DNA of 64,000 bases. Origin: Acidobacteriota bacterium (lineage in GTDB: Bacteria; Acidobacteriota; UBA6911; RPQK01; JAJDTT01). The notes below the pieces were generated by a model. That model was not told the DNA's origin, made no database searches, and worked only from the letters and a program-made list of their open reading frames with translations. Shown piece by piece: positions 11,793-27,685 of the stretch (within the stretch, counting starts at the first letter, position 1; every line of letters starts with the position of its first letter). A program made the position numbers and the translations under genes. The stretch spans positions 5,856,001 through 5,920,000 of the forward strand of contig OZ253580.1 in the NCBI GenBank assembly GCA_965263035.1, in the 5' to 3' direction.

Positions 11793-14751
11793 TAGCAAGA
11801 GAAGATGTGCCGGTAGATTTGTCGAATGGCGGCGGTTTCGATCCGATAGCGCTCCAGAAGCGAGTCCCCCGAGTCCAAACCCATGAGCCGAGCCGTGATT
11901 GCACACCGGGACGGATCGCGGGGTAGTCTGGTCACCGGACTTTCAGCCAGTAGTCGCTGCAGAGCCTCGAGGTGGAAGAGAAATCCCGCGCCCCGGCTCA
12001 GGACCCTCCCCTCGTCAGGATCGAGATGACCCGACTCGACAAGTCTGGTGATGCCGACCCGAGTCCCGCTTCCCTCGATCCCGTGTTGCAGCTGCCGATA
12101 CTTTACCACGAACTGGATATCCATCAGCCCACCGCGGCCAACCTTGAAATCGTAGTTGACTCCATCTTTTTCCTTTCCCACCTCCCGCTCCTTGCGCCGG
12201 CGGACATGGTCCAGATCCCGAACCTGGTCCGGGGTGAAGGGCTGGACGTTCCAGATCAGAGGCCTCAGGTCCAGGGGTCTTCCCTGACTGTAGAGAGGAC
12301 GAAGACTGGCGTAGGCCATTCGTTCCAGGGGTCGGCTCGGGTAGCGAAGTAGCGCTCAAGCGCCGGGAAGGGAATTGCCAATGCCCCGTGGCGTCCATCG
12401 GGACGCAACCGGAAATCCATCAGGTACGCCCTCCCCTGATCAGTGTAGGTCTCCAGCTCCTGAATCAGTCTTCGAACCAGGCGCACGAAGAGTATGGACA
12501 GATCCTTGTCCGGACGGAGTCCGTAAACCAGCAACAGATCCAGATCGGAGTGATAGGTCATCTGCCGCTCTCCCAGCTTTCCCAGAGCCAGGAGGCTGAA
12601 CGTCTCTTCCCGAAGGGCAGGGAAGTCCTGGAGAATCTCTCGCATGACGTGACGGAGACAGCTGTCGGCCAGATGACTGAGGCGGAGCCTGGTCCCGGCG
12701 GTCCCCGGTTCCAACAGATCGTGGAGCGCCACCTTGAACTCCTCCCGGCGCTTGAAGACCCGCAAACCGTTCCTCCGATCCTTGGCCCCCTCAGCCAACT
12801 GCTCCAGCGATTTCCGCATCCCGAGAGCATCGTCCTCCAAGGGCGGAAGCCGAGAGACCGAATCCAGCAACTCGGGGTTGTGGATCAGGGTCTCGGACAA
12901 AAACTCACTGGTCGCCAACACGGTCAGAAGGGTCTTCCGGAAAAGGCGGTTCTCTATGAGTTCGGAATAGAGGTCGGCTCGAGCATTGAGCGACTCGCTG
13001 AAGCGGTCCAGGCGGGTGAACAGGTGAGAGGCTTTCGGAGCGAGGCCGATGTATTCGACCAGGTTAGGCACCAGGTTGGCCAGAAGATTCCTCATCCGGC
13101 TGGGCGAATGGGGAAAAGACGGGGCCTTCTCCAGAACGGCGATGCCCTCCAGGACACTCTCGTCGCGGATCCCGTTGGCTCGGAGAATCTCCAACGCCTC
13201 CTCGCGGTTCATATCCGAATTGAGCACCAGCCGTTCCAGGCCGCGCCGGGTCGGATCCTTTCCGAACAACGACTCGAAGATTCGCTGGACCTGGCTCTTC
13301 CTCCGCTCCAGTTCTTCCAGGAACGAGTCGGTCTCCGGCTCGGCCGCCGGACCGCTCGTTCCGGCGCCGAAGCCCAGACGCCGAGCCAGGCGCAGCAGCT
13401 TGCCGGGATCCCGGGGAAGACGATGGGTCTGCAGGTCATGGACGAGTTGCAACTTGTGCTCGACGTCGCGGAAAAACAGGTAACTGCCGCGAAGCGTGCG
13501 ATGGTCGTCGGCAGAGATGAGTCCGCCGTCCAGCAAGTGGTCCAGGGCGTCCAGGGTGTTGGGGGTTCTGAGCCCAGGCTGGGACCCACCGTAGAGAAGT
13601 TGGAAGGCCTGCGCGAAAAACTCGATTTCCCGAATTCCGCCCCGGCCCAACTTGACGTCCCACGTCTCGCTCCCCCCCTGCTCCGACTGGCGCTCCGCTC
13701 GCCGCTTGAGCCACCGAACCTCCTCGATGGCAGCAAAATCCAGATATCGCTTGTAAACGAATTCCTCCTGAACGATTCCCACCAATTTGCCGCCCAACGC
13801 GGCGCTTCCCGCCACGTGCCTGCACTTGATCAGGGACCAGCGGTCGGGTGTGTCCCCCCAGGTCTGGTAATAGGAGCGGTAGGCATCCAGCGAATATACG
13901 ATCTCCCCGGATCTGCCCATGGGCCGCAACCGGAGGTCGACTCGGTAAAGCCTTCCCTCGGCCGTAATGGTGGACAGGGCCCGCGTCAGATCGCGGGCAA
14001 AGCGGGCCGTGCGTCCAAAATCGGTCCCGTCGGCACGGACGTACAAGAGATCCACGTCGGAGCTGAAATTCAGCTCTTCTCCTCCCAGCTTCCCCAGGGC
14101 CAGCCCTGAAATGTCGGATTTCGAATCCAGTCCCGCCGGCGCCAGGATGTCGAAGGTCCGCTCCAGCACGGCGTCGGCGAGGTGGGACACCTGGCGAGCC
14201 GTCTGGTCCGGCGTGCAGAAACCCAGGATGTCCTGCGCCGCAATCCGGAGAGTCTCTTGCCGGCGAAGCCGGCGAAGCGACTCGAGAGCCGCCTCCGAAC
14301 CTTCGGGCGGACCCGCCGCCCGGGCCCGCGCAAGGAAGTAATCTCTGTCTGGAATCGATTCGAGCCGTTTCCCCTCCAGGAGCCAATCGACGTAGTCGGG
14401 GCTCCGCAGCAGGAGTTGGGCCAAGTAGGTCGAGGCTCCCAGAATCCGGGAGAGGGTTCTCAGCGCACGCGGTTTTTGACTCAGCAGGTCGAGAAAAGCA
14501 TTAGGACTGGACGCCGATTCGATCAGCGTTGCCAGATGGGGGATCACGGCGTCCGGATCGGCGGCTCGAAGGGCCTCCCGAAACGGATTCTCGGCCAATT
14601 CGGGCCATTCGTGGAGGTCACCGCCCACACGGCGAATTGCCTGAAGACTTGGAGCGACTCTGGAGGGGTTGCGAAAACCGGACTGGGCGAGAACCCGGCT
14701 GATCTCCTCGTTGGAAAAGCGGGAGGACAGAAACAATTCCCGGGCGCGCAT
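11792..14751 (-). pseudogene. glnE: Bifunctional glutamine synthetase adenylyltransferase/adenylyl-removing enzyme, split by a 1-bp frameshift near 12325
   Basis: Two nucleotidyltransferase domains (GKLGGEELNFSSDVDL..DLRLRP; GKLGERQMTYHSDLDL..DFRLRP) in ORF 12265-14769. The C-terminal part (DFKVGRGGLMDIQF) is in ORF 11792-12319. Adding one G restores DPWERMAY. May be a sequencing error rather than a true pseudogene. Confidence 0.85.
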
Positions 14752-14873
14752 TCCAGACGATTCTAGCAACCCCTGGCAGAAGCCGTCACGGCATCAGACC
14801 GGTCCCGGCGCTAGCCCGGATATCTCATCAGAAAGATTGATAAAGGCCGCGTTTTCTGCTATAAGTGTTGTGT

Positions 14874-14886
14874 AATCAATAACTTA
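14874..14886 (+). promoter_or_regulatory. IHF-consensus site inside the IS1380 left end
   Basis: AATCAATAACTTA matches WATCAANNNNTTR in an AT-rich patch just upstream of the transposase start. Confidence 0.45.
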
Positions 14887-14909
14887 CAAAGCAGAAGGGA
14901 CGCGACCTT

Positions 14910-16322
14910 ATGACCGCAGAGTGTACCAGAATAAAGCTCAGATTTCAGGGCCTGGACGGACGGGATGTCGTGGGCCGGTTCGACGGCGGCGAGATCACCT
15001 CCGACGCCGGTGGCGTGCTCCTGCGCGAAGTGGAGCAGCGGACCCGGATTCTGGGTCGTCTGAGCGAATGCTTCACCGACTATCGAGACTCGGATCGAGT
15101 CGAACACCCGGTGGAGGCGTTGATCAAACAGCGGGTGCTGGGGCTGTGCCTGGGCTACGAGGACCTCAACGACCACGACGAGTTGTGCCGGGACCGGCTC
15201 TTGGCGCTGTTGTGTGATCGAGATGATCTGACGGGGGAGTTCCGGCGCGTGGAGTCGGATCGAGGCAAGCCGCTGGCAGGCAAGAGCACCCTGAACCGAC
15301 TGGAGCGGACTCCGTTGGAGGGACCGGAGGGCGCGTACAAGAAGATCGTGGCCGACCCGGCGGGGATGGACGAGCTGCTGCTGGAGGTGTTTGTGGAAGC
15401 GCATCCGGAGCCCCCGGAGGAGGTGATCCTGGATGTAGACGCCACGGACGATCCGCTGCATGGGAAGCAGGAGGGACGGTTCTTCCACGGCTATTACAAA
15501 CGCTACTGCTACCTGCCGCTGTACGTCTTCTGTGGGGAACACCTGTTGCGTGCGCGGCTGCGCACGGCGGATCGAGGCGCGGCCCACGGGGTGGTGGCGG
15601 AGTTGGAACCAATCGTGAGGCGGCTGCGTGAAGCGTGGCCCCAGGTGCGGATCACGGTTCGAGGGGACAGTGCCTTCTCCAACGACGAGTTGATGGTCTG
15701 GTGCGAGAAGGAAGGGATCGATTACGTCCTGGGGTTGGCGCAGAACGATCGGCTGAAGCGGAGGATCGCGACCCGGATGGAGACCGTCCGGCAGTTGCAG
15801 CGGGCGATCGGGAAGGCCGTGAGGCAGTTCCAGGAACTGCGCTATCAGACGCACAAGAGTTGGTCGTGCGAGCGCCGGGTGGTGGCGAAGGTGGAGCACC
15901 TGCCCCGGGGAAAGAACCCGCGATTCATCGTGACTTCGGTCCCGGTCCAGGAATGCGATGGGCGAAGATTGTACGAGGAGGTCTACTGCGCGCGGGGAGA
16001 CATGGAGAATCGGATAAAGGAACAGCAGATGGGTCTGTTTGCGGACCGCACGTCGACCCGGAAGCTGGCGGGGAATCAACTGCGGTTGTATTTCTCGGCA
16101 TTCGCCTACGTGATGATGGAGACGTTGCGACGGGTGGGGCTGGCGGGGACGAAGCTGGCGCGGGCGCAGAGCTGGACCCTGCGGGTGAGATTGCTGAAGA
16201 TCGGGGCACAGGTCCGGATCACCAGCCGCAAGGTCTGGTTGTCCTTTTCCGAGAGCTATCCGTATGCGGCGCTGTTGAGGACGGCTCTGACGCAAGTGCA
16301 AGCCCTCCCGCTTCGCTGTTAG
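14910..16322 (+). CDS. IS1380-family DDE transposase
   Basis: FDGGEITSDAG, LDVDATDDPLHGKQEGRFFHGYY, RGDSAF, YCARGDMENRIKEQ. Confidence 0.95.
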   Translation: MTAECTRIKLRFQGLDGRDVVGRFDGGEITSDAGGVLLREVEQRTRILGRLSECFTDYRDSDRVEHPVEALIKQRVLGLCLGYEDLNDHDELCRDRLLALLCDRDDLTGEFRRVESDRGKPLAGKSTLNRLERTPLEGPEGAYKKIVADPAGMDELLLEVFVEAHPEPPEEVILDVDATDDPLHGKQEGRFFHGYYKRYCYLPLYVFCGEHLLRARLRTADRGAAHGVVAELEPIVRRLREAWPQVRITVRGDSAFSNDELMVWCEKEGIDYVLGLAQNDRLKRRIATRMETVRQLQRAIGKAVRQFQELRYQTHKSWSCERRVVAKVEHLPRGKNPRFIVTSVPVQECDGRRLYEEVYCARGDMENRIKEQQMGLFADRTSTRKLAGNQLRLYFSAFAYVMMETLRRVGLAGTKLARAQSWTLRVRLLKIGAQVRITSRKVWLSFSESYPYAALLRTALTQVQALPLRC

Positions 16323-16582
16323 CAACGGATGGAAAGAACTCTTTGGACGATGGCGACTTGGGAGTCCCCAGGATGGACTGCGCCCCGGAGTGGGCACCGG
16401 GTCGAGAGTCGTCGCTCAGAAGCGCAGGATGGGCGTCAAAAGGCTCTGGAGAAGCGCTGCATCTGGCCGTTGGTCGGCACGTTCGAGCACGAAAACTGCC
16501 TCTTGAACTCGTATGGATAAAGAATCACCCAGACGACGGTTCAACTTCCGTTTATTGTTCTACTGATGAGAAATGCAGGCTA

Positions 16583-16743
16583 GGAGTCTGCGCAGTAGAA
16601 ATGATCGTAGCGAGAAAGTGGGGAATCGAGGCCAGATTTTCTCGATTTGGAGGTGCATAGTTGTTCTATTCGCCGAGAAATCGAGGAAATATGGACCGAT
16701 TCTACTGCTTTCGCAGTAGATCAATTTCTGCGGCGCAGGCTCC
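16583..16743. repeat. MITE-like palindromic repeat, family 1, copy 1
   Basis: ~160 bp. Terminal inverted repeats GGAGTCTGCGCAGTAGAAATGATC / GGAGCCTGCGCCGCAGAAATTGATC; CTAG at both ends; near-identical copies at 48912 and 59686. Confidence 0.92.
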
Positions 16744-16872
16744 TAGGTGAGACTCTCACCACGGACCGGCAGTGCGGATCCGGAATCGCTGTCCGGGAGT
16801 GGACGGGTCGTTCGGCAACTGGAACGACCCGTCCACGGGCACGGCGGCTGTGGAACCGCAGGGCAGGGAAGA

Positions 16873-18288
16873 TCAGATGTCGAAGTAGAGAGCGAATTCG
16901 TAGGGATGCGGTCTCAGCCGCATGGCATCCACCTCACGCTCCCGCTTATAGCCCAACCAATTCTCGATCACGTCCGGAGTGAAGACATCTCCCTTGAGCA
17001 GGAAGTCATGGTCGGCCTCCAAGGCGTCGAGAGCCTGCTCCAGAGTCCCCGGAACCGACTCCACCTGAGCCATCTGTTCCGGCGGCAGATCGTAGAGGTC
17101 CTTGTCCATGGGATCGGGCGGCATGATCTTGTTCTGAATCCCATCCAGTCCGGCCATGAGCATGGCCGCAAATGCCAAGTAGCCGTTACAGGACGGATCG
17201 GGAGGACGGAACTCGATCCGCTTGGCCTTCTCGCTGCTGGAGTAAGTGGGGATTCGGACGCAGGCGCTTCGGTTGCGCATCGAATAGATGAGATTGACGG
17301 GCGCCTCGTAACCGGGCACCAGCCGCCGGTAGGAATTCGTGGTCGGAGCACCGAAAGCCAGGACCGCGGCGGCGTGCTTGAGGAGTCCGCCGATGTAGTA
17401 GACCGCCTCCTGACTCAGATCGGCATAGGTCCCGGGGCCGTAGAAGACGTTCCTGCCGTTCTTCCAGAGGCTCTGATGGCAGTGCATCCCGGAGCCGTTG
17501 TCCATGAATATGGGCTTGGGCATCAGGGTGACCGTCTTATTGTAACGGCGCGCCACGTTCTTGATGATGTACTTGAACTTCAGCAGCTTGTCTCCCATGT
17601 TGACCAGGGAATCGAAGCGTATGTCGATCTCGCATTGGCCGGCCGTTGCCACTTCGTGGTGATGAACTTCCACCTGGATGTCGGCGTCCTGGAGAGCCAG
17701 CATCATCTCCGTCCTCAGGTCCTGCAGCGTGTCCATGGGAGGAACGGGGAAGTAGCCTTCCTTGTATCGAGGCTTGTAGCCCAGGTTGGGGTTTTCTTCG
17801 CGCCCGCTGTTCCAGAAACCCTCCACCGAATCGATGTAGTAGTAGCCGTGATTGTAGGACTGGCCGAACCGGACGTCGTCCAGGACGAAGAACTCGGGTT
17901 CGGGTCCGAAATAGGCGGTATCGGCGATACCGGTCGACACCAGGTATTTCTCAGCTTTCTGAGTGATGTAGCGGGGGTCCCGGCTGTATGGTTCGTGGGT
18001 GATGGGATCGGCGATGTTGCAGATCAGAATCAGGGTTCTGACCTTGGAAAATGGATCCTCGAAGCAGGTGCTGGGATCGGGGATCAGGATCATGTCGCTC
18101 TCCTGAATCTGCTGAAAACCCCGAATGCTGGACCCGTCAAAACCGAACCCATCGGTGAAGCTGTCCTCGTCCAGATCGCCGGCGGCAATGGAAAAATGCT
18201 GCCACAGTCCCGGCAGGTCGCAGAACCGCAGGTCCACGACCTTGAGCTGCTGATCTCGAATCAGATTGACTACTTCTCTGGCGTCCAT
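16873..18288 (-). CDS. glnA: Glutamine synthetase type I
   Basis: [49 protein letters not shown] and adenylylation motif [11 protein letters not shown]. Confidence 0.98.
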
Positions 18289-18333
18289 AAGCGAGGTCCC
18301 TCCTTATGCTGGTTTTCAGATTGTTCGTGTAAA

Positions 18334-18387
18334 GGCAACGAGCGTTGCCAAGCTTCCGCCTGCGGGCATGGTACAACGACTCGTGCC
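18334..18387. promoter_or_regulatory. Candidate operator sites upstream of glnA
   Basis: 7-2-7 palindrome GGCAACG-AG-CGTTGCC at 18334-18349; CAACGA-N4-TGCC occurs at both 18336 and 18374. Confidence 0.4.
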
Positions 18388-18472
18388 TTCTCGAAAGAAC
18401 CCTCTGATTTTTATTTCGGGAAGCCGTCTTGTCCCCGGGGAAGGGCCATTTCTGTTGGCGAGGAGCTACTGA

Positions 18473-19042
18473 CTATTGCCCTTGGGTCTCCATGAAGTAG
18501 TAGGAGACCAGGTGGAGAATCAGGAAGTGGGCTTCCTCGATGTGGCCCATGTGGGACGAATCGACGTGAATGACACTCCGGGCGCATTCGGAGAGCTCCC
18601 CTCCGGATCTCCCCGTAATGCCGACGGTGTCGATTCCGTTCCGGTTCGCCCAGCGGACGGCATTGATCACGTTCGGAGAGTTTCCGCTGCCACTGAAGGC
18701 CAAGAGCAGGTCTCCGCTGCGGCCGAGGTTCCTCAACTGCTCCACAAAGATCTGGTCGTAGTCGTAGTCGTTGGCTACGGCCGATATCCAGGGAATATTG
18801 TCGGTGAGGGAAAGGACACGGAACCGGGGATTGCGGCCGTGGGAAGCCCCCTTACCCAGATCGTTGGCCAAATGGGATGCGGAGGCCGCGCTGCCGCCGT
18901 TCCCACAGACGAATATCTGTCGCTCGTTCTTCCGGGCCGTCTCCAATCGACTCGCCAGCTCGGCCACCAGATTCTCCGAAACCGTTTTCAGCACATCCAG
19001 CGAGGTCTTCTTGTAGGCCGCGACGTAGCTCTTGATGTCCAT
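18473..19042 (-). CDS. SIS-domain sugar isomerase, GmhA (phosphoheptose isomerase)-like
   Basis: CGNGGSAASASH, ANDYDYDQIFVEQ, SGSGNSPNV, IEEAH. Confidence 0.85.
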   Translation of the reverse strand: MDIKSYVAAYKKTSLDVLKTVSENLVAELASRLETARKNERQIFVCGNGGSAASASHLANDLGKGASHGRNPRFRVLSLTDNIPWISAVANDYDYDQIFVEQLRNLGRSGDLLLAFSGSGNSPNVINAVRWANRNGIDTVGITGRSGGELSECARSVIHVDSSHMGHIEEAHFLILHLVSYYFMETQGQ

Positions 19043-19242: not shown

Positions 19243-19270
19243 ACGTCGCATAATGAATATTATGTAAACT
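19243..19270 (+). other. dif site (XerC/XerD chromosome dimer resolution)
   Basis: ACGTCGCATAA-TGAATA-TTATGTAAACT, an 11-6-11 layout. Left arm and centre resemble E. coli dif (GGTGCGCATAA-TGTATA); right arm equals the B. subtilis TTATGTAAACT arm. Intergenic and AT-rich. Confidence 0.88.
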
Positions 19271-19389: not shown

Positions 19390-19875
19390 CTACATCTTGT
19401 ATTTTCCCATTTCTTCCGGGTTGAGATTCTCCAGCCACTTGCGCACCTCTTCCGGATCCAGGTTTTCCTTGTCCAGAGTGATGTTGCGGCTGTTGTTGAT
19501 GACGTCGTCCGTGACGTAGATGGGGGAGTCGGTTCGGAGGGCCAAGGCGATGGCGTCGCTGGGACGGCTGTCGATGGCGATGGGTTCCCCGTTGAGCTTG
19601 AGATGAATCATCGCGTAGAAGGTGTTGTCCTTGAGCCCCGTGACGACGACCTTGTAGATCTCCGCATCCAGGTGCAGGAGGATGTTCTTGATCAGATCGT
19701 GGGTCATGGGACGGGGCGTGTCGATCCGCTCCACCTGGAGCGCAATGGCGTTGGCCTCGAAGATCCCGACCCAGATCGGCAGAAGCGTGTTCTTCTTCAC
19801 GTCTTGGAGGATGATGATCGGAGAATTGGTGATGGGATCCATCATCAGTCCGCGAATCTTGAATTCTCGCTCCAT
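19390..19875 (-). CDS. Bifunctional nuclease family protein (DUF151)
   Basis: LPIWVGIFEANAIA, PRPMTHDL, IDSRPSDAIALA. Confidence 0.92.
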   Translation of the reverse strand: MEREFKIRGLMMDPITNSPIIILQDVKKNTLLPIWVGIFEANAIALQVERIDTPRPMTHDLIKNILLHLDAEIYKVVVTGLKDNTFYAMIHLKLNGEPIAIDSRPSDAIALALRTDSPIYVTDDVINNSRNITLDKENLDPEEVRKWLENLNPEEMGKYKM

Positions 19876-19883: not shown

Positions 19884-21233
19884 CTAGTGGCTTGTCTCGG
19901 GACCGACTCTGGTTCCCAGAAGACTGTTGGCTCCGATACCTGTGACCCGCACCTGGACGAAGGAGCCGGGAGGGTCCTGACCCGGAAAATTGACCACCTT
20001 GTTGGTCGCCGTCCTTCCGAAGATCTTCTCTCCGTCTCTCGAGGTCCCTTCCACCAGGACCTCGAATTCCCTTCCCAGATACCGGTCCCGGTGGATTTCG
20101 AGTTGGATCTCTTTCTGGCGGCGTTGCAACTGCATGAGACGGCGGGTCCGGTCCAGGTCGGTTTGATCGTCCGTCCAGAGCTCGGCGTCCGTGTAGGGCC
20201 GGGGGGAGTATTTGAAGGAGAACATGGACTCGTAGCGGACCGTTTCCAAGAGGCTCATGGTCTGCTGAAAATCGTCTTCCGTCTCCCCCGGAAATCCGAC
20301 GATCACGTCGGTGGAAAACGCAAAATCAGGATTCCAGCGGCGAAAGTTCTCGACGATCTCCAGGTATCTCTCCCGGGTGTACTGCCGCCGCATTCGCTTC
20401 AAAATCGGATCGGAACCGCTCTGGACCGGCAGGTGGACCTGGGAACAAATTCGGGGTTCCTGCGCCATCAGTGCGATGGCGTCGTCGTCGAACTCGCGCG
20501 GATGCGGAGACGTGAACCGGATTCGCCGGATTCCATCGACCCGGGCCACCTGGCCCAGGAGCTGCGCGAAGCGGAACCGGGGCCGCTGCGGGTCTCGATA
20601 ACTGTTGACCGTCTGTCCCAACAGGACGATCTCCACGAATCCCAGATCGGCCGCGCGCCGGACTTCTTCCAAAATGGCTTCGGCGGGCCGATTCCGTTCC
20701 TTGCCCCGGGTAAAAGGCACGATGCAGAAGGTGCAGCGCTTGTTGCAACCCTCCATGATGGTGATCTGGGCTCTGAACCGGCTGGAGCGCAGCACTGGTC
20801 CGATCTCGACCGGTATCGAGTCCGCCAGGAACTCGGTACGGACCCGCCGGGACGGGTCCTGGCCCAAATCCTTGGAATCCAACTCGTCCAGAAGATCGGG
20901 CAACGAGTGGTAGAGGTGGGTTCCCACCACCAGGTCCAGAAACGGAACCTTCTTCAGCATCCGCTCGCCCTCTTGCTGGGCCACGCAGCCCACCACTCCG
21001 ATTCTGAAGTTGTCCTCCCTCCGCTTTCGCTTCTTCATCTGTCCCAGACGGCTGTAGACCTTCTGGGCAGCCTTCTCACGGACGCTGCAGGTGTTGAGAA
21101 GAAAGAGGTCCGCTTCCTCGGGAGTCGAGACCGGAATCATCCCGCGATGAACCAGGAGCCCGGAGATCTTCTCCGAGTCATGCACGTTCATCTGGCATCC
21201 GAAGGTTTCGATGAAAAAGCGCTCAGACTGCAT
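19884..21233 (-). CDS. miaB: tRNA-2-methylthio-N6-dimethylallyladenosine synthase
   Basis: TFGCQMNVHDSE, NTCSVREKA, GCVAQ, radical-SAM CNKRCTFC and C-terminal TRAM domain. Confidence 0.96.
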   Translation of the reverse strand: MQSERFFIETFGCQMNVHDSEKISGLLVHRGMIPVSTPEEADLFLLNTCSVREKAAQKVYSRLGQMKKRKRREDNFRIGVVGCVAQQEGERMLKKVPFLDLVVGTHLYHSLPDLLDELDSKDLGQDPSRRVRTEFLADSIPVEIGPVLRSSRFRAQITIMEGCNKRCTFCIVPFTRGKERNRPAEAILEEVRRAADLGFVEIVLLGQTVNSYRDPQRPRFRFAQLLGQVARVDGIRRIRFTSPHPREFDDDAIALMAQEPRICSQVHLPVQSGSDPILKRMRRQYTRERYLEIVENFRRWNPDFAFSTDVIVGFPGETEDDFQQTMSLLETVRYESMFSFKYSPRPYTDAELWTDDQTDLDRTRRLMQLQRRQKEIQLEIHRDRYLGREFEVLVEGTSRDGEKIFGRTATNKVVNFPGQDPPGSFVQVRVTGIGANSLLGTRVGPETSH

Positions 21234-21363
21234 TGATCAGACCCCGCGTGCCCGGAGGCCACGATTCCCCAACCCGACCGGGCTCGAGGCGTTCGGCCCC
21301 CACGTCGGAGTTCATTCTAGCCGAAGCCCGAAAGGCGAAACAATTGAGACGATCAAAACGGGA

Positions 21364-23088
21364 TCAGGAGGGCTGCGATACGGGTAGCTGAGGATCGGCC
21401 CGGGATTCCGGCCTGGTGGCGGCCGCTGCCCGTCGAAGCAGCTCCCGGGCCTGCCGGAGCGTCGTCTCCGTCAACGAATCACCGGCCGCCATGCGGGCCA
21501 ATTCCCTGACCCGCTCGTCTGCATCCAGGATCTGGACCTGAATGACGGTTCTGCCCTCGTGGATTCCTTTGTCCACCTGCAAATGGCGCGTTGCGTGGCA
21601 GGCCAACTGAGGCCAGTGGGAGATGCAGAACACCTGGTCGCGGTGCGCCAAACGGGCCAATTTCAGACCTGCGATCGACGCGACCCGGCCCCCGATACCG
21701 GCATCCACCTCATCGAAGACCAAGGTCTTGGAGTAGGGGGTGAATGCGACCACCGACTTCAGGGCCAACGTGATCCGGGAGAGCTCACCTCCCGACGCGG
21801 TGCGCCCCAAGGGTCGCGGAGATTCCCCGGGATTGGGACTGATGAGGAATTCCGCCGTATCCGTTCCCTGCCCTGTCTGGACCGACTCGTCGGTTTCGAT
21901 CCGGACCCGGAATACACAGCTGCCCATGGCCAGTTGGGAGAGCTCCCCCTCAACCCGCCGGCAGAAATCCTTGGCATCTGCGCGGCGTTTGCGGGAGAGC
22001 TTCCGGGACAGCGTGAGATACCGGGATTCAAGGTCTTGCTCCTCCCGGGTCCACTCCTCCTCCTGCCTCCGGGAGACATCCACCGACTCCAATTCTTCCT
22101 GGATCTTTGCCTGGTGGGCCAGAACCTCCTCCAATGACGGCCCGTATTTCCTCTTGACACCCTCCAAGGCCGAGAGTCTTTCGCCGACTTCGTCCAGCCG
22201 TGCCGCGTCCCACTGGATCGATGCGGCGTAGTCCCGCAATTCCAGACCCACTTCCTCCACCTGATACCGGAGATCGAGGCTGCGCTCGGCCACGGACTCC
22301 ATTTCCGGGTCGAGGCGGCCGAGATCGTAGAGGCACTTCTGAGCCTGATCCAGGAGAGAGAGCACACTTCCCTCCTGATCGTAAAGCAGCTGAAAACTCG
22401 CGTTTGCGGTCTGGTGCCGGCTTTCCGCCGTTGCCAGGAGGTCCCGCTCCCGTTCCAACTTCCAATCCATTCCCGGTTCCAGGCCAAGCTGTTCCAGTTC
22501 CGACAACTGGTAACGCAGAGTGTCCATTCTCTCGAGGCGCCCGCTCGCGCCTTCACGGAGGCGTTCGAGGCGCCGGCGAACCGCCATCAGATCGACGTAG
22601 ATCTGCCGGACACGGTCCGTGAGTTCCCCGTTCTTGCCAAAACCGTCCAAGTGTTGGAGGTGGGTCCGAGGCTGCAACAGGCTTTGTTGATCATGCTGAC
22701 CATGGATGTCCGCCATCAGGTTTCCCAACCGGGTCAGGACCCCCAGTGTCGAGAGCTTCCCATTGATGAAAATCCGATTGGCTCCGGTCCGGGAAATCTC
22801 CCTCCGGATCAGTATTTCGTCGCCCTCGGTTTCCAGACCCGTTTCCTCGAGAAAGGACCAGGCGGGATGCCCGGGTTCCAGGGAAAAAACGCCTTCGACC
22901 CGGGCCTTATTGAAGCCCTCTCGTATCATCTCCTGCGAGGCCCTTTCCCCCGCCAGGAGGGACACCGAATCGACCAGGATCGATTTTCCCGACCCGGTCT
23001 CGCCGGTGATCAGATTGAACCCCGGCGCAAACTCCAGATCGAGCCGGTCAATGAGCGCGAAATTACTGATGCGAAGGTACTTGAGCAT
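21364..23088 (-). CDS. recN: DNA repair protein RecN
   Basis: ITGETGSGKS Walker A, IHGQHDQ, ASGGELSR, VFDEVDAGIGG. Confidence 0.96.
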   Translation of the reverse strand: MLKYLRISNFALIDRLDLEFAPGFNLITGETGSGKSILVDSVSLLAGERASQEMIREGFNKARVEGVFSLEPGHPAWSFLEETGLETEGDEILIRREISRTGANRIFINGKLSTLGVLTRLGNLMADIHGQHDQQSLLQPRTHLQHLDGFGKNGELTDRVRQIYVDLMAVRRRLERLREGASGRLERMDTLRYQLSELEQLGLEPGMDWKLERERDLLATAESRHQTANASFQLLYDQEGSVLSLLDQAQKCLYDLGRLDPEMESVAERSLDLRYQVEEVGLELRDYAASIQWDAARLDEVGERLSALEGVKRKYGPSLEEVLAHQAKIQEELESVDVSRRQEEEWTREEQDLESRYLTLSRKLSRKRRADAKDFCRRVEGELSQLAMGSCVFRVRIETDESVQTGQGTDTAEFLISPNPGESPRPLGRTASGGELSRITLALKSVVAFTPYSKTLVFDEVDAGIGGRVASIAGLKLARLAHRDQVFCISHWPQLACHATRHLQVDKGIHEGRTVIQVQILDADERVRELARMAAGDSLTETTLRQARELLRRAAAATRPESRADPQLPVSQPS

Positions 23089-23258
23089 TACGCGTCGAGA
23101 GAAGACGAGGTCCGGTTCCGCCCCGGGACGAGAACCAGGAATCATTATAGGAAAATCGAGCCGATTCCGGGAGAGGCTGGGCGCCCGATATGTGACATAG
23201 GCCTAGTTTACAATTTCCTGGGCTGTCTTCGGAGGGATTCGACCGTGGCGCCGGGGGA

Positions 23259-23981
23259 ATGATGCAAGGTTGTTGTCTGATTGCTCAGGGTTCTTTCGGA
23301 AGCTTCTGGTCTCTAGTCGCCCAGAGTGGGCCGGTGGCCCTGCTGGTCCTGCTGGTCCTGCTCTTCTTCTCCATCTTATCTTGGACTATCATCGTCTCCA
23401 AGGTAAGGGCCTACAAGAGGGTTGAAGAGCAGTCGTTCGAGTTCACCGAATTCTTCCGGCGCAGTTCCAGTCTTTCCGAGATTCACCGCGCCTGCGATGA
23501 CTACCCGCTTTCTCCGCTGGCCGGCGTATTCAAGGCCGGCTATCGGGAACTGGATCATTGGATTCAGGCCAAGGGAGACATGAGTCGGACCAACCCCATG
23601 GACCAGCACGTGGCCATACGCAGCCTGGGGGGCCTGGAACGGGCGTTGCGCAAGGCGGCGAGCGCCGAGATGACCACCCTGGAAAGCTCCTTGAGTTGGC
23701 TGGCGACGACCGGCTCGGTCACCCCGTTCATCGGACTCTTCGGAACGGTCGTCGGGATCATCAACGCGTTCCAGGGATTGGGAGAGGGTTCGGGCACCAC
23801 CATCCAGGCCGTTGCTCCCGGAATCAGTGAGGCCTTGGTCGCGACAGCGGCGGGCCTATTCGCCGCAATTCCTGCGGTGATTGCCTACAACCATTTTCTG
23901 AACCGACTCAAGATCATCGGCATCGAAATGGACGATTTCACCACTGAGCTCCTGAATCTGATCGAGCGGAGTTTCGCTTGA
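23259..23981 (+). CDS. tolQ: Tol-Pal system protein TolQ (MotA/TolQ/ExbB family)
   Basis: TPFIGLFGTVVGI and APGISEALVATAAGLFAAIPA; first gene of the tol-pal cluster. Confidence 0.9.
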   Translation: MMQGCCLIAQGSFGSFWSLVAQSGPVALLVLLVLLFFSILSWTIIVSKVRAYKRVEEQSFEFTEFFRRSSSLSEIHRACDDYPLSPLAGVFKAGYRELDHWIQAKGDMSRTNPMDQHVAIRSLGGLERALRKAASAEMTTLESSLSWLATTGSVTPFIGLFGTVVGIINAFQGLGEGSGTTIQAVAPGISEALVATAAGLFAAIPAVIAYNHFLNRLKIIGIEMDDFTTELLNLIERSFA

Positions 23982-24096
23982 TGGAACGGATCCGGAGCCA
24001 CGGCGGTCCTCTGGTCCGGGCTTCACGTCTTCGGCCGGATCTGCATCCCGCAGTTTCCGTCCGGCGGCGGAACGGTCTTTGCAAAAGGAGGACTTC

Positions 24097-24516
24097 TTGG
24101 CCTTCTCCGGCGTGAATCCGACTCGGCCTTCAATCTCCGAGATCAACGTCACTCCCCTGGTGGACGTCGTATTGGTCCTCCTGATCATCTTCATGGTTAC
24201 GGCGCCGATCCTCCAGACCGGAATCGAAGTCAATCTCCCCCGGACGCGCACCGTCTCCAACGTCGATCCGGAGCAGCGCGCCGTGGTGACCATCGGACGG
24301 GAGGAAACCCTGTACTATGGGTCCACACCGTTGAATTTCAATGAATTGGGAAACCGGTTGAAGACCGATATCGGGACCGGGAACCTGCCCGTGTTCCTCC
24401 AGGCTGACGAGGACGTCCGCTGGAAGACGATCGTCACCGTCATGGACGAGATCCGGGTCTCGGGATACACGAATATCCAGGTCGTGACCCGGCCCTTCAA
24501 GGAGAAGGCCCCGTAG
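24097..24516 (+). CDS. tolR: Tol-Pal system protein TolR (ExbD family)
   Basis: EINVTPLVDVVLVLLIIFMVTAP; TTG start at 24097 after AGGAGG. Confidence 0.9.
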   Translation: MAFSGVNPTRPSISEINVTPLVDVVLVLLIIFMVTAPILQTGIEVNLPRTRTVSNVDPEQRAVVTIGREETLYYGSTPLNFNELGNRLKTDIGTGNLPVFLQADEDVRWKTIVTVMDEIRVSGYTNIQVVTRPFKEKAP

Positions 24517-24533
24517 GCCGTCGTAGGAAATCG

Positions 24534-25367
24534 ATGCCGCAAAGCCGGATCCTGATCACCCACGTCAAGAGCGACCGCCTTTCACGTCCGTTCGTGTTTT
24601 CGGCGGTGGCGCACGTGGTTCTTTTTCTGGCCGCCACCTTTGTGACCGACCTTTTCCCACCCGTGGAGATCGTCAGCGGAAGCACCGGCACGGGAGGAGG
24701 CCAGGGAGGAAATCTGGTCTCTGTCGGCCTGGCGGCCGATTTGGGAGGCGGCGCCGGCATGTACAAGCCGGCAGTGACCCCCAGAGTCCAGGCTGCGCCC
24801 CCTCCTGAAACCAAGAGCAAGGAGAAAGCGGTCCCGGAGGCCGCGCCGGACAAGACCGAGTTTCAGCAGAAGACGTCGCGCAAACGCCGGCCCCGAAAAC
24901 AGAAAAAAGCGGCCATATCCTCTCGCACCGGTTCCAAGGACTCGCAATCCGGCGCCGAGGCCCAGATCCCCCGGAAAGCGGACGCCGGCAGCGGGGGCGC
25001 CGGTGGAGCCCCCTCGGGGTCCGGCGGCGGATTCGGCGGCGGACAGGGAGTACGCGTCGGCGGCGGCACGGGACAGGAGGGAATGCACTCCTGGTATGCT
25101 CGCCAGGTCGAGCAGCGCGTGGGGCAGAACTGGCTCCGGGCCTCGTTGGGTGCGCTGGCGAGACCCGTGGAGACGGTCGTCAGTTTCGAAGTGCTGCGAA
25201 ACGGCCAGATCCATCGGATCAAACTGGAGCGGCCCAGCGGCGTCCGAGCCGTAGACCTGGCCGCACAACGCGCCATCCACGCGAGCGCCCCATTGCCTGC
25301 TCTTCCGCCGGAGCTGCGAAACCGAAGAGTGCGATTTGTGACCTACTTCCAATATCCTCCTCGGTAA
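24534..25367 (+). CDS. tolA: TolA/TonB-family energy transducer
   Basis: Transmembrane helix with SAVAH, Gly/Lys/Pro-rich linker, C-terminal SGVRAVDLAAQRAI..PLPALP; lies between tolR and tolB. Confidence 0.8.
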   Translation: MPQSRILITHVKSDRLSRPFVFSAVAHVVLFLAATFVTDLFPPVEIVSGSTGTGGGQGGNLVSVGLAADLGGGAGMYKPAVTPRVQAAPPPETKSKEKAVPEAAPDKTEFQQKTSRKRRPRKQKKAAISSRTGSKDSQSGAEAQIPRKADAGSGGAGGAPSGSGGGFGGGQGVRVGGGTGQEGMHSWYARQVEQRVGQNWLRASLGALARPVETVVSFEVLRNGQIHRIKLERPSGVRAVDLAAQRAIHASAPLPALPPELRNRRVRFVTYFQYPPR

Positions 25368-25382
25368 AAAAGGGATTACACC

Positions 25383-26885
25383 ATGCTTCCAGCTATTTCG
25401 ACCTTGACAGCCCGTGGCAAAAGTCGTCACGGCATTCGACCGTCCCTGCATCCCGGCGGACTGCGTTGCGACTCGGTCACATACTCCCGGTATGCTCCCT
25501 CATCGCGCCTTGTCCGGCGGGCGCAGGAACGGTCTCGGTGCTCGCGAGACTTTCACCACGGACTGTTGGCCACGGTCCTCATCCTGATGCTCGTTGCGCC
25601 CACGGGAATGGCGCAGCCGTCCGACGTCAAGATCTATCCCAAGTTGCGAGAGAGCACGCGCTTGGCCGCGGCCGACTTCGTGGCTCGGACAGCGGCCACG
25701 CCCCAGACTCAAACCGCCGCGAAGGTCTTCAATGACGTCCTCTGGCAGGACCTCAAATTCTCCGCATTCTTCGAGATGCCGTCCAAGAGTTTCTACCCTT
25801 TGAAGCCGCTACGGTCGCCGCAGGACGTGAGTTTCGATCACTGGCAGGCGCCGACGCTGGACGTCGACTTTCTGGCCTTCGGCAACCTGCACGTGGATGC
25901 CGCCGGAGCCATGATCGAAGGCTACCTCTATGACGTGAAGACACGCCAGCAGGTCCTGGGAAAGCGCTACTCCGTATCCGACGCGACGCTGATTCGAAAG
26001 GTCGCCCACGAGTTTGCCGACCAGATCGTCTATCAGTTGTCGGCCGGTACCAGCCAGGGCGTGGCCAGCACGCAGATCACGTACAGCTCTCTTAAATCCG
26101 GGAGCAAGGAAATCTATACCATGGACTATGACGGTTCCAACGTTCGGACCGTCACCGCCAACCAGGGAATCAACAAGTTTCCCGACTGGTCCGGCGACAA
26201 TTCAAAACTGGCTTTCGTCACCATCCTTCCCGGCAGCGCCCGCTGGCAGTTCTGGATCCAGAGCCTCCAAGGAGGCCGGGATGTGATTTCAACGCCCACC
26301 TCGTACGTGTCGTCTCCGGCTTTCTCTCCCGATGGCCGGCAGATCGCTTACTCCGCCCGGGGCAGAGGCCATTCCAGTGCGGACATCTTCGTGGCGAACG
26401 CCGACGGATCCGGCAAGATCAACGTCTCCAATCATCCTGCCATCGACACCTCGCCGACGTGGAGTCCCTCGTCCCGGCAGATCGCCTTTGTCTCGGACCG
26501 GACCGGACGGCCCCAGCTCTGGCTCATGGACGTCGACGGTTCCGATCTCCGCAAACTGGTATTGGAAGGAGGACACTGCGACAGTCCCAGTTGGGCGCCG
26601 GACGGTCGTCACGTCATCTACTCCTGGCAGGCCCCAAAACGTTGGAAACACGACGTTTATATAGTGGAAGTGGCCAGTGGGAAGATCTTTCAGCTGACCT
26701 CGGGAACCGGAAGTAACGAGCATCCCGACTGGTCTCCGGACGGAAGGCACATCGTCTTCCAGAGCACGCGAACCGGTTCCAAACAGCTGTTCATCATGAA
26801 TGCCGACGGCAAGAGTAGAAGGCAAATTACGGCCTATGGTATAAACGAGAGTCCAGCTTGGTCAGGCTATCTGACCCGTCCCTGA
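25383..26885 (+). CDS. tolB: Tol-Pal beta-propeller protein TolB, with an in-frame repeat inserted in the signal-peptide region
   Basis: PD40 repeats (PAFSPDG, PTWSPS, PSWAPDG, PDWSPDG) and AHEFADQIV; directly upstream of pal. Confidence 0.93.
   Translation: MLPAISTLTARGKSRHGIRPSLHPGGLRCDSVTYSRYAPSSRLVRRAQERSRCSRDFHHGLLATVLILMLVAPTGMAQPSDVKIYPKLRESTRLAAADFVARTAATPQTQTAAKVFNDVLWQDLKFSAFFEMPSKSFYPLKPLRSPQDVSFDHWQAPTLDVDFLAFGNLHVDAAGAMIEGYLYDVKTRQQVLGKRYSVSDATLIRKVAHEFADQIVYQLSAGTSQGVASTQITYSSLKSGSKEIYTMDYDGSNVRTVTANQGINKFPDWSGDNSKLAFVTILPGSARWQFWIQSLQGGRDVISTPTSYVSSPAFSPDGRQIAYSARGRGHSSADIFVANADGSGKINVSNHPAIDTSPTWSPSSRQIAFVSDRTGRPQLWLMDVDGSDLRKLVLEGGHCDSPSWAPDGRHVIYSWQAPKRWKHDVYIVEVASGKIFQLTSGTGSNEHPDWSPDGRHIVFQSTRTGSKQLFIMNADGKSRRQITAYGINESPAWSGYLTRP
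25407..25566. repeat. MITE-like palindromic repeat, family 2, copy A (inside tolB)
   Basis: Terminal inverted repeats ACAGCCCGTGGCAAAAGTC / ACAGTCCGTGGTGAAAGTC; TG on both flanks; homologous copies at 57188 and 58577. Confidence 0.92.
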
Positions 26886-26914
26886 GTGTAGTTTTTTCCT
26901 TCCAAGGAGGTTCA

Positions 26915-27685
26915 ATGAACAGAGGCTTTCTGGTCACTGTGCGGTTGGTTCCCTGTGTGTTGTTGGTGCTGGCGATGGGAAGCTGCAAGAAAAAGCCCCC
27001 TCCGGCGATTGCGGTTCCTGACGCTCCTGCGGTGGTGGCCCCCTCCAAACCGGCGGCCGTCATGCCGACCATTGAAATCACGGCGGAGCCCAGCACCATC
27101 GAGCGTGGCAGCCAGACGACGTTGAGTTGGAAGAGCACCGACGCCACATCCGTCCTCATCGACGGGGGTGTCGGAAACGTCGCCGAGACTGGTTCCCTGG
27201 TCCTTTCGCCAACCGAGTCCACCACCTATACGGCCATCGCCCGAGGGAGCGGCGGCAGCGCGCGCGACAGTACCCGTGTGACCGTGGTGCCCAAGAGGGC
27301 CGCGAAACTGTCGGTCACGGATATCGAGGGACTTCAGCGGGCGATCGACGATGGGCGGGTCCGGCCGGTCTTCTTCGACTATGACAGGGCTCTACTGAGC
27401 TCCAAGACGACGCAGATCCTGGAGGAGAACGCCCGCTGGATCAAGAGGTTCCCGACGGCGACGGTCATCGTCGAGGGACACTGCGACGAGCGGGGCAGCG
27501 AAGAGTACAACCTGGCTCTGGGCGATCGCCGAGCCCAGGTCACCCGCGACTACCTGTTGGACGCCGGCGTGAGTGCGACTCAGTTGGAAGCTCTTTCGTT
27601 TGGCGAGGAGCGTCCCTTCGAGAGCTGTCACGACGAGACCTGTTGGAGCAAGAACCGCCGCGCCCATTTCGCCGTCAAACGTTAG
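26915..27685 (+). CDS. pal: Peptidoglycan-associated lipoprotein Pal with an extra N-terminal Ig-like domain
   Basis: Lipobox LAMGSC; OmpA-like domain VFFDYD..EGHCDERGSEEYNLALGDRRA..NRRA; AGGAGG RBS. Confidence 0.93.
   Translation: MNRGFLVTVRLVPCVLLVLAMGSCKKKPPPAIAVPDAPAVVAPSKPAAVMPTIEITAEPSTIERGSQTTLSWKSTDATSVLIDGGVGNVAETGSLVLSPTESTTYTAIARGSGGSARDSTRVTVVPKRAAKLSVTDIEGLQRAIDDGRVRPVFFDYDRALLSSKTTQILEENARWIKRFPTATVIVEGHCDERGSEEYNLALGDRRAQVTRDYLLDAGVSATQLEALSFGEERPFESCHDETCWSKNRRAHFAVKR

What the first reader, a model, noticed from the sequence alone, without database searches (positions are those of the whole stretch)
19243..19270. Chromosomal dif site with KOPS-like polarity switch: the window probably spans the terminus
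Seen: 28-bp ACGTCGCATAA-TGAATA-TTATGTAAACT. In a non-exhaustive scan by eye, GGGNAGGG is on the plus strand left of the site (900, 12365, 12615, 16861, 18438) and on the minus strand right of it (21866, 31171, 46168, 54127, 54737, 58931), with exceptions at 12004, 12429 and 28726. Known: FtsK reads KOPS towards dif, where XerCD acts. The site combines an E. coli-like left arm with a B. subtilis-identical right arm. No integrated element is visible beside it.
Basis: partly seen in the sequence, partly recalled or inferred. Interest (0 to 1): 0.55.

Follow-up and report, generated by a model that had tools for sequence, protein, structure and literature searches.

The report
Chromosome dif site at replication terminus
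This 28-base sequence is very probably the ordinary dif site where an uncultured soil-type (Acidobacteriota) bacterium separates joined daughter chromosomes, and a G-rich signpost motif known from E. coli points towards it from both chromosome arms.

Summary
ACGTCGCATAA-TGAATA-TTATGTAAACT lies at window 19243-19270 (genome 5,875,243 of 6,198,070). It is unique in the genome: the next best match has 10 mismatches.

It lies 48.5% of the circle from dnaA, which sits at the GC-skew minimum. It is at the last GC-skew maximum before a steady decline, and at the edge of an independently trained word-skew switch at 5.873-5.933 Mb.

Exactly one copy is present in 14 of 14 other genomes of the family. 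It is a conservation island: 25 of 28 columns invariant against 0-4 of 50 in the flanks. The genome encodes XerC, XerD and a full FtsK with a gamma domain.

GGGNAGGG is the most significantly skewed of 76,514 octamer families (998 leading, 588 lagging). Its cumulative polarity peaks 805 bp from the site. The skew does not depend on gene orientation. The motif ranks first again in three relatives.

The skew (63% genome-wide, 74% near dif) is well below that of proven KOPS, and one relative in another family lacks it.

Verdict: a genuine but ordinary XerCD/dif terminus. The KOPS reading is plausible and unproven. The scan has found dif sites before on other DNA.

The parts
19243..19270 (+). dif site, 28 bp, 11-6-11 layout
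   Evidence: unique in the genome; one copy in each of 14 of 14 family relatives; a conservation island.
19243..19253 (+). Left arm ACGTCGCATAA, inferred XerC-binding half-site
   Evidence: Assigned by position, by analogy with E. coli and B. subtilis dif (PMC5357621 passages; PMC2731167 passages). The outer bases vary among relatives. Binding was not tested.
19254..19259 (+). Central region TGAATA, where strands would be exchanged
   Evidence: It varies between genera (TGAATA, TAAATA, TATATA, GTAATA) and is fixed within the genus. Carnoy and Roten describe the same pattern for dif.
19260..19270 (+). Right arm TTATGTAAACT, inferred XerD-binding half-site
   Evidence: 11 of 11 identical to the right arm of B. 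subtilis dif as quoted in PMC3025954 (hand count). It is the best conserved part among relatives.
900..18445 (+). Seven GGGNAGGG motifs pointing rightwards to dif (900, 6679, 6787, 12365, 12615, 16861, 18438); two opposed (12004, 12429)
20069..58938 (-). Seven GGGNAGGG motifs pointing leftwards to dif (20069, 21866, 31171, 46168, 54127, 54737, 58931); two opposed (28726, 61580)
18473..19042 (-). Left neighbour gene: SIS-domain, GmhA-like isomerase. Not part of the mechanism; it bounds the 347-bp intergenic region that holds dif.
   Evidence: PF13580, PF01380. (below the NCBIfam GmhA cut-offs).
19390..19875 (-). Right neighbour gene: bifunctional-nuclease-domain protein. Bounds the intergenic region.
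   Evidence: PF02577, 134.7 bits.

Best explanation
The 28-mer is the chromosomal dif site of this Acidobacteriota bacterium. After replication, an odd number of crossovers between sister chromosomes leaves a dimer. XerC would bind the left arm and XerD the right arm of each of the two dif copies, and strands would be exchanged across the 6-bp centre to give two monomers. The septum-anchored FtsK pump would bring the two copies together and switch on XerD. FtsK is probably steered along each arm by GGGNAGGG-type octamers that point towards dif.

Shown here: the site's sequence, uniqueness, position, conservation, the presence of the three proteins, and the motif polarity.

My odds are about 0.95 that this is the functional dif, and about 0.5 that GGGNAGGG is the true FtsK guide motif.
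For: Sequence:
- The layout is 11-6-11 with inner dyad ATAA/TTAT.
- Hand counts against sequences quoted by papers give 21 of 28 identical to E. coli dif and 22 of 28 to B. subtilis dif. They give 23 of 28 to the Geobacter sulfurreducens prediction and 23 of 28 to the Solibacter usitatus prediction.

Uniqueness:
- One copy in 6,198,070 bp; the next best match has 10 mismatches.

Position:
- dnaA is at 2,872,067, which is the cumulative GC-skew minimum at 2,873,575.
- The site is 3,003,176 bp from dnaA, or 48.5% of the circle.
- Cumulative skew falls steadily after 5.88 Mb.
- Forty-eight skewed word pairs were learned only from 0.3-2.5 and 3.2-5.2 Mb. They place the switch on a plateau at 5,872,860-5,933,417.
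- In 5 of 5 other complete genomes of the genus, the single copy lies 43-49% of the circle (shorter arc) from dnaA. The sizes of G001, G002 and G004 are rounded.

Conservation:
- 17 of 41 genomes searched, counting G000, have exactly one match at up to 3 mismatches. That is 14 of 14 relatives in the family and 2 of 26 in other families of the order. The reversed-pattern control gave 0 in all 41.
- At family level 25 of 28 columns are invariant, against 0-4 of 50 in each flanking block.

Proteins:
- XerD scores 379.4 bits against a cut-off of 329.6, and XerC 352 bits against 335.15.
- The catalytic R, K, HxxR, H and Y residues are visible in both.
- One 785-aa FtsK carries the 4TM, alpha, motor and gamma domains.

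Guide motif:
- GGGNAGGG ranks 1 of 76,514 octamer families (998 leading, 588 lagging).
- Cumulative polarity peaks at 5,874,438, which is 805 bp from the site.
- Skew rises towards dif: 57.5% at 2-3 Mb, 74.7% within 250 kb and 80.6% within 50 kb.
- On the leading strand there are 998 copies against 789 expected from a second-order Markov model. On the lagging strand there are 588 against 653.
- The motif is 63.9% leading in genes co-oriented with replication and 64.6% leading in head-on genes.
- In +-100 kb around dif of G003, G005 and G011 pooled, it again ranks 1 of 69,436 families (126 towards dif, 35 away).
Against: For dif:
- Nothing tested speaks against it.
- The global cumulative GC-skew maximum is at 5,540,850, which is 334 kb or 5.4% of the genome away. 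The maximum next to the site (5,846,813, value 444 against 483) is only second.
- Inside the window the first 13 kb have slightly negative skew. The local peak near the site owes much to the IS at 14.8-16.6 kb.
- No binding or recombination was tested.

For the KOPS reading:
- Skew is 62.9% genome-wide and 73.8% (104 of 141) in the 7% dif region. Proven motifs show 0.79-0.91 and 0.90-1.0 (PMC3384302 Table 1). The motif therefore fails that paper's criterion of at least 90%.
- It is under-represented against a first-order Markov model on both strands.
- In G024, a different family of the same order, +-100 kb around its dif shows no polarity: 21 of 41 towards dif, rank 46,523 of 49,778. G024 has the same FtsK recognition helix.
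- The residue aligned with E. coli N1296, one of the KOPS-recognition residues named in PMC2533119, is Gly here, and E1303 aligns with Asp. This mapping is by spacing and is my inference.
Confidence: 0.93

Rival explanations
1. The site is dif, but the GGGNAGGG polarity is a by-product of replication-linked mutational and compositional asymmetry acting on G-rich words. On this view FtsK either reads another motif or is not guided.
For: The skew is only 62.9% genome-wide and 73.8% in the dif region, below every proven KOPS/SRS in PMC3384302 Table 1. Many overlapping G-rich families are also skewed, such as GAAGGGNA, GGAAGGGN and GGGANGGG. G024 has no polarity despite an identical recognition helix. 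The position equivalent to N1296 is Gly.
Against: The motif ranks first of 76,514 families. Independently, it ranks first of 69,436 in three relatives, and first of 44,246 in the second genus alone, with 42 of 49 pointing to dif. Expected skew from composition is only 0.54-0.55. The polarity follows replication direction in both gene orientations and strengthens towards dif.
Confidence: 0.45
2. The 28-mer is the attachment site or a remnant of a Xer-exploiting mobile element (IMEX), or a plasmid-type Xer site. On this view it is not the chromosome's own dimer-resolution site.
For: Xer sites are used by integrative elements (PMC5357621 passages). An IS copy lies 2.7 kb away. The wider terminus region holds many integrase genes.
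Against: There is only one copy in the genome and no second full or half site in the window. Both flanks are housekeeping genes. The flanks are alignable across the genus on both sides, at 0.75-0.90 mean column identity. There is one copy per genome in 14 of 14 family relatives, opposite dnaA in all 6 complete genomes of the genus.
Confidence: 0.02
3. The sequence is a chance AT-rich palindrome, or an operator or promoter element for the neighbouring SIS-domain or nuclease-domain gene.
For: It lies in a 347-bp intergenic region upstream of the - strand SIS-domain gene.
Against: Across genera and families the 28-mer is conserved while its flanks are unrelated sequence. No Rfam family matches at 17000-21500.
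Confidence: 0.02

Closest known systems
XerCD/dif with FtsK and KOPS (Escherichia coli, Vibrio cholerae)
   Same: A 28-bp 11-6-11 site, 21 of 28 identical to E. coli dif (hand count). It is single copy and lies opposite oriC. The genome has separate XerC and XerD and an FtsK with a gamma domain. GGGNAGGG is the top polar octamer and switches at the site.
   Different: The outer left arm and two right-arm bases differ. The motif skew is 63% genome-wide and 74% near dif, against 91% and 100% in E. coli. The FtsK gamma helix reads GRAARLLDIME where E. coli and P. aeruginosa have NRAAR(I/M)IE.ME.
CodV-RipX/dif with SpoIIIE and SRS (Bacillus subtilis)
   Same: The right arm TTATGTAAACT is 11 of 11 identical, and the site is 22 of 28 identical overall (hand count). 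PMC3025954 (Discussion passage) states that the Firmicutes dif profile was the best starting profile for Acidobacteria and several other phyla.
   Different: The B. subtilis guide motif GAGAAGGG is weakly skewed here: 264 leading and 192 lagging, or 57.9%.
Published dif predictions for Acidobacteria and Deltaproteobacteria (Kono et al. 2011, PMC3025954 supplement; Carnoy and Roten 2009, PMC2731167)
   Same: Solibacter usitatus is 23 of 28 identical. Acidobacterium capsulatum is 20 of 28, with an identical centre TGAATA and 9 of 11 in the left arm. Geobacter sulfurreducens is 23 of 28, with 10 of 11 in each arm. All are hand counts.
   Different: None is identical. The A. capsulatum prediction has a divergent right arm (5 of 11), and its table lists it 27 degrees from the GC-skew shift point.

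Membership tests
XerCD/dif chromosome dimer resolution site | 28-bp site: two 11-bp arms with partial dyad symmetry around a 6-bp centre, similar to experimentally proven dif sites | tested here: met
   One search gives the sequence. It is 21 of 28 identical to E. coli dif and 22 of 28 to B. subtilis dif, as quoted in PMC3025954 (counted by hand).
XerCD/dif chromosome dimer resolution site | Single occurrence per chromosome | tested here: met
   one copy, with the next best match at 10 mismatches; exactly one copy in each of the 17 genomes that have a match.
XerCD/dif chromosome dimer resolution site | Located in the terminus region, near the GC-skew shift and opposite the origin | tested here: met
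   48.5% of the circle from dnaA. The site is 28 kb from the second-highest cumulative skew maximum, and lies on a word-skew plateau at 5,872,860-5,933,417. Caveat: the global skew maximum is 334 kb away.
XerCD/dif chromosome dimer resolution site | Genome encodes XerC and XerD with intact catalytic residues | tested here: met
   TIGR02225 scores 379.4 bits against a cut-off of 329.6 for one protein. TIGR02224 scores 352 bits against 335.15 for the other. The R, K, HxxR, H and Y residues were read.
XerCD/dif chromosome dimer resolution site | FtsK with a C-terminal gamma domain to activate XerD | tested here: met
   one 785-aa protein with the FtsK_4TM, alpha, FtsK_SpoIIIE and gamma domains (94.2 bits against a cut-off of 30.6).
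XerCD/dif chromosome dimer resolution site | Site conserved among relatives while the flanks diverge | tested here: met
   14 of 14 family relatives carry it. 25 of 28 columns are invariant, against 0-4 of 50 in the flanks.
XerCD/dif chromosome dimer resolution site | XerC and XerD bind and recombine the site; its loss gives a dimer-resolution defect | not testable with these tools
   Needs biochemistry or genetics.
KOPS / SRS (FtsK-orienting polar sequences) | Leading-strand skew beyond what base composition and gene orientation give | tested here: met
   62.9% observed against 54-55% expected. The motif ranks 1 of 76,514 families. It is 63.9% leading in co-oriented genes and 64.6% in head-on genes.
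KOPS / SRS (FtsK-orienting polar sequences) | Polarity inverts at dif | tested here: met
   the maximum is 805 bp from the site; convergence within +-100 kb in G000 (46 of 60), G003 (45 of 58), G005 (39 of 54) and G011 (42 of 49). It is absent in G024 (21 of 41).
KOPS / SRS (FtsK-orienting polar sequences) | At least 90% skew in the dif region (7% of the genome) and at least 1 motif per 40 kb there (criteria of PMC3384302) | tested here: not met
   104 of 141, or 73.8%. The frequency criterion is met, at 141 motifs in 434 kb.
KOPS / SRS (FtsK-orienting polar sequences) | FtsK gamma recognition residues as in KOPS-reading FtsK (E. coli N1296, R1300, E1303, E1306; PMC2533119 and PMC2680272) | tested here: inconclusive
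   alignment: the aligned residues are G, R, D and E. Two are identical, one is conservative and one is changed. Numbering is mapped by spacing, which is my inference.
KOPS / SRS (FtsK-orienting polar sequences) | Direct, orientation-dependent recognition by FtsK | not testable with these tools
   Needs EMSA, triplex-displacement or recombination assays.

The most novel reading that the evidence does not exclude
GGGNAGGG is the true FtsK guide motif in this Acidobacteriota family. That would place the E. coli-type KOPS word well outside Proteobacteria. It would be read by a gamma domain that has glycine where E. coli has the recognition residue N1296, and it would be maintained at only 63-86% polarity. 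It would follow that the KOPS word is older and more widely shared than the few tested species show. It would also follow that 90% polarity near dif is not required for function.
Probability: 0.45. Interest if true: 0.35.

Novelty: new member of a known kind. Interest (0 to 1): 0.2.

Why it matters
The site fixes the junction of the two replication arms in this genome and its relatives. That helps with genome orientation, skew analyses and the detection of rearrangements or integrated elements at dif.

The modest extra is a clean, replicated computational case. The E. coli KOPS consensus is the top polar octamer in a family of Acidobacteriota, a phylum in which my literature searches found no KOPS work. 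The dif site itself is what a specialist would expect.

Tried and rejected
- an unbiased list of 'top converging' words was flawed. The reverse complement of a family with N at position 4 has N at position 5, so every partner count came out as 0. I discarded that part and redid it with all eight degenerate positions.
- a search for second half-sites in the window, as a sign of an IMEX remnant, found only the site itself.
- an Rfam scan of 17000-21500 at E-value up to 1 gave 0 matches.
- applying the strict PMC3384302 criteria gave 59 octamer families with at least 90% skew and at least 1 per 40 kb in the dif region. None has a strong genome-wide skew; the best is AGGGAAGT, at 91 leading and 42 lagging. 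No better KOPS candidate emerged.
- the individual N variants of GGGNAGGG peak at 5.83-5.93 Mb. The 805-bp coincidence of the summed curve with the site is therefore partly luck, and the real resolution is about +-50 kb.
- the review PMC5357621 did not hold the dif sequences as text.
- earlier scan notes held nothing near the site.

Full report
**What is there**

Window 19243-19270 (+) reads ACGTCGCATAA-TGAATA-TTATGTAAACT, exactly as reported. The window is bases 5,856,001-5,920,000 of a single 6,198,070-bp contig with 62.1% G+C, so the site starts at genome position 5,875,243.

It sits in a 347-bp intergenic region between two - strand genes. On the left is a SIS-domain, GmhA-like isomerase (18473-19042). 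On the right is a bifunctional-nuclease-domain protein (19390-19875).

Further out to the left are glnA (16873-18288, -), an IS transposase (14910-16322, +) and glnE (12265-14769, -). To the right are a MiaB-like radical SAM enzyme, RecN and ExbB. No Rfam family matches at 17000-21500.

**Is it more than chance?**

Allowing up to 3 mismatches, the 28-mer matches once in the window, and none of 100 shuffles gave any match. In the whole genome there is one exact copy and nothing with 1-9 mismatches on either strand. The core CATAA-N6-TTATG occurs once in 6.2 Mb.

**Comparison with known dif sites**

PMC3025954 (Methods passage) quotes these two sites:
- E. coli dif: GGTGCGCATAATGTATATTATGTTAAAT
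- B. subtilis dif: ACTTCCTAGAATATATATTATGTAAACT

All counts in the table are by hand.

| Site compared | Left arm | Centre | Right arm | Total | Source |
|---|---|---|---|---|---|
| E. coli dif | 7 of 11 | 5 of 6 | 9 of 11 | 21 of 28 | |
| B. subtilis dif | 7 of 11 | 4 of 6 | 11 of 11 | 22 of 28 | |
| Geobacter sulfurreducens (predicted) | 10 of 11 | 3 of 6 | 10 of 11 | 23 of 28 | PMC2731167 table, |
| Solibacter usitatus (predicted) | 8 of 11 | 5 of 6 | 10 of 11 | 23 of 28 | PMC3025954 supplement, |
| Acidobacterium capsulatum (predicted) | 9 of 11 | 6 of 6 | 5 of 11 | 20 of 28 | PMC3025954 supplement, |

The site is close to a widely shared form.

By record title these come from Kiritimatiellia, Melioribacteraceae, Aminicenantes, Gemmatimonadota, Desulfuromonadales, Omnitrophota, Acidobacteriota and others.

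One of those records coincides with relative G011, which places the family in Acidobacteriota. An earlier scan note also calls this genome an uncultured Acidobacteriota bacterium.

**Position on the chromosome**

- The only strong DnaA match is at 2,872,067. It coincides with the cumulative GC-skew minimum at 2,873,575.
- The site is 3,003,176 bp from dnaA, or 48.5% of the circle.
- Cumulative GC skew rises from the origin to a broad top with two nearly equal maxima: 5,540,850 (value 483) and 5,846,813 (value 444). It is 340 at the site and declines steadily after 5.88 Mb.
- The dip between the two maxima (5.56-5.62 Mb) lies among several integrase genes.
- As a skew measure that does not presuppose the site, I selected 48 significantly skewed 8-mer pairs using only 0.3-2.5 Mb and 3.2-5.2 Mb, and scored them across 5.2-6.2 Mb plus the first 0.3 Mb. 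The weighted cumulative curve peaks at 5,917,581, with a plateau (within 3 units) from 5,872,860 to 5,933,417.

The site lies at the left edge of that plateau, and the window contains most of it. The window therefore does span the junction of the two replichores.

A caveat is that GC skew inside the window is noisy. The first 13 kb are slightly negative. The sharp positive stretch at 14-17 kb is the IS copy.

**Relatives**

With up to 3 mismatches the 28-mer is found exactly once in 17 of 41 genomes searched, counting G000:
- 8 of 8 other genomes of the genus
- 6 of 6 genomes of a second genus of the family
- 2 of 26 genomes from 15 other families of the order

The reversed-pattern control gave 0 in all 41.

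Differences between relatives fall mostly in the central six bases (TGAATA, TAAATA, TATATA, GTAATA) and in the left arm, chiefly its outer bases. Carnoy and Roten describe this pattern for dif (passages).

In alignments of 150 bp on each side, the 28-mer stands out as an island:

| Comparison | Genomes aligned | Invariant columns in dif | Invariant columns per 50-bp flank block |
|---|---|---|---|
| Genus level | 5 | 27 of 28 | 9-38 of 50 |
| Family level | 7 | 25 of 28 | 0-4 of 50 |
| Order level | 4 | 22 of 28 | 0-3 of 50 |

In the 5 other complete genomes of the genus, the single copy lies 43-49% of the circle (shorter arc) from dnaA. Exact sizes are known for G003 and G005, and the others are rounded.

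GC skew changes from positive to negative across the site in G003, G011 and G024. In G005 it drops from +0.029 to about 0.

**Machinery**

- Of 27 tyrosine-recombinase matches in the genome, the two best pass NCBIfam equivalog cut-offs.
- One is XerD (TIGR02225, 379.4 bits against a cut-off of 329.6). The other is XerC (TIGR02224, 352 bits against 335.15).
- Both show the catalytic R, K, HxxR, H and Y residues.
- A single 785-aa FtsK carries the 4TM, alpha, motor and gamma domains.

**The polar octamer**

In the window:
- The tally is 7 + / 2 - on the left and 2 + / 7 - on the right.
- Alone this is marginal (Fisher p = 0.057).
- The motif is not enriched in the window (18 found against 22.1 expected).

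Genome-wide the picture is clear:
- GGGNAGGG is the most significantly skewed of 76,514 octamer families (exact, or with one degenerate position), at 998 leading against 588 lagging, or 62.9%.
- GGGAAGGG is the top exact 8-mer when tested against composition-expected skew: 403 leading against 185 lagging, with 0.536 expected.
- The cumulative + minus - curve peaks at 5,874,438, which is the last + copy before the site, 805 bp away. The four N variants peak separately at 5.83-5.93 Mb, so the true resolution is tens of kb.
- Skew rises towards dif: 57.5% at 2-3 Mb, 64-66% at 0.25-2 Mb, 74.7% within 250 kb and 80.6% within 50 kb.
- Against a second-order Markov model, the leading-strand count is in excess (998 against 789) and the lagging-strand count in deficit (588 against 653). 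Against a first-order model both are in deficit.

As a control for gene orientation I built a crude gene model: 3,647 ORFs chosen by GC3-GC2 contrast, covering 81% of the genome. Only 53.3% of coding bases are co-oriented with replication. The motif is 63.9% leading (431 of 675) in co-oriented genes and 64.6% leading (387 of 599) in head-on genes. The polarity therefore follows replication and not transcription.

**Replication in relatives**

Counts of GGGNAGGG pointing towards dif within +-100 kb:

| Genome | Relation to G000 | Towards dif | Fisher p |
|---|---|---|---|
| G000 | this genome | 46 of 60 | not computed |
| G003 | same genus | 45 of 58 | 3.5e-5 |
| G005 | same genus | 39 of 54 | 0.0023 |
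| G011 | second genus of the family | 42 of 49 | 4.9e-7 |
| G024 | another family of the order | 21 of 41 | 0.75 |

An unbiased ranking over all octamer families gave these results:
- G003, G005 and G011 pooled, without G000: GGGNAGGG ranks 1 of 69,436 (126 towards dif, 35 away).
- G011 alone: rank 1 of 44,246.
- G003 and G005 together: rank 6 of 56,960.
- G024: rank 46,523 of 49,778.

**Limits of the KOPS reading**

- PMC3384302 (Table 1 and criteria passages) reports skews of 0.79-0.91 genome-wide and 0.90-1.0 in the dif region for the proven motifs. [quoted passage not shown] Here the dif-region value is 73.8% (104 of 141), so the criterion is not met.
- The FtsK gamma recognition helix reads RIGYGRAARLLDIME. 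The solved P. aeruginosa and E. coli domains read (K/R)IGYNRAAR(M/I)IE.ME.
- I mapped the E. coli residues named in PMC2533119 and PMC2680272 (N1296, R1300, E1303, E1306) by their spacing. The aligned residues here are G, R, D and E.
- The four aligned recognition positions (G, R, D, E) are the same in G003, G005, G011, G024 and G038 (the helix differs only at L/M, I/V/M and M/L positions). They therefore do not explain why G024 lacks the polarity.

**Verdict**

The site is a genuine chromosomal dif at the junction of the replication arms, served by a standard XerC/XerD/FtsK set. It is an ordinary member of a well-known system.

Dif predictions for Acidobacteria have been in print since 2011 (PMC3025954). 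The scan has also found dif sites before on other DNA, in CPR bacteria, Gemmatimonadaceae and a phage.

The one modestly new point is that the E. coli KOPS consensus is the top polar octamer in this acidobacterial family. My two literature searches (listings and abstracts only) returned no paper on KOPS in Acidobacteria. That is not proof that none exists.

Noticed in passing
window 14811-16584: A 1.77-kb insertion sequence with a DDE_Tnp_1_4 transposase (PF13701, 494 bits) lies between glnE and glnA, 2.7 kb left of dif. The genome holds 16 copies at 95% identity or more, most at 99-100%. This copy causes the sharp positive GC-skew spike at 14-17 kb of the window.
   Followed up: partly
genome 2,088,349; 3,684,176; 5,656,978; 6,146,635; 6,028,487; 5,171,968; 5,547,265; 2,118,119; 2,929,669 (outside the window): These are a family of roughly 28-bp inverted-repeat sites built around ACGATAA/TATAA-N6-TTAT. 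Several lie within about 1 kb of tyrosine-recombinase genes. They may be recombination sites of mobile elements or invertible switches.
   Followed up: no
genome 5.55-5.62 Mb (outside the window): A stretch of reversed GC skew splits the terminus-side skew maximum in two and puts the global maximum 334 kb from dif. Integrase genes lie just beside it and beyond (5,547,701; 5,643,955; 5,647,731; 5,656,031; 5,660,916). This suggests integrated elements or an inversion.
   Followed up: no
window 30001-33000, 34001-37000, 37001-39000 and 59001-62000: Strong AT-skew excursions: +0.205 at 30-32 kb, -0.17 to -0.19 at 34-37 kb, -0.168 at 37-39 kb, and -0.16 at 59-61 kb. I did not look at what genes lie there.
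   Followed up: no
G024:C1:1864633-2064632 (L149-L158): This relative from another family has a dif within 3 mismatches, a GC-skew sign change at it, and the same FtsK gamma recognition helix. It shows no GGGNAGGG polarity within +-100 kb (21 of 41). Related words such as GGAAGNGA (43 against 11) top its list instead.
   Followed up: partly
PMC3025954 supplement, row for Acidobacterium capsulatum: The published dif prediction for A. capsulatum shares this site's centre (6 of 6) and most of its left arm (9 of 11), but has a divergent right arm. Its table lists it 27 degrees from the GC-skew shift. It may be a degenerate or secondary Xer site and not the true dif.
   Followed up: no
G003 and G005 versus G000: The strand of dif relative to the strand of dnaA differs among genomes of the genus: same strand in G000, G001, G002 and G004, and opposite in G003 and G005. 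GGGNAGGG still converges on the site in every case tested. This is consistent with inversions that include dif or dnaA.
   Followed up: no
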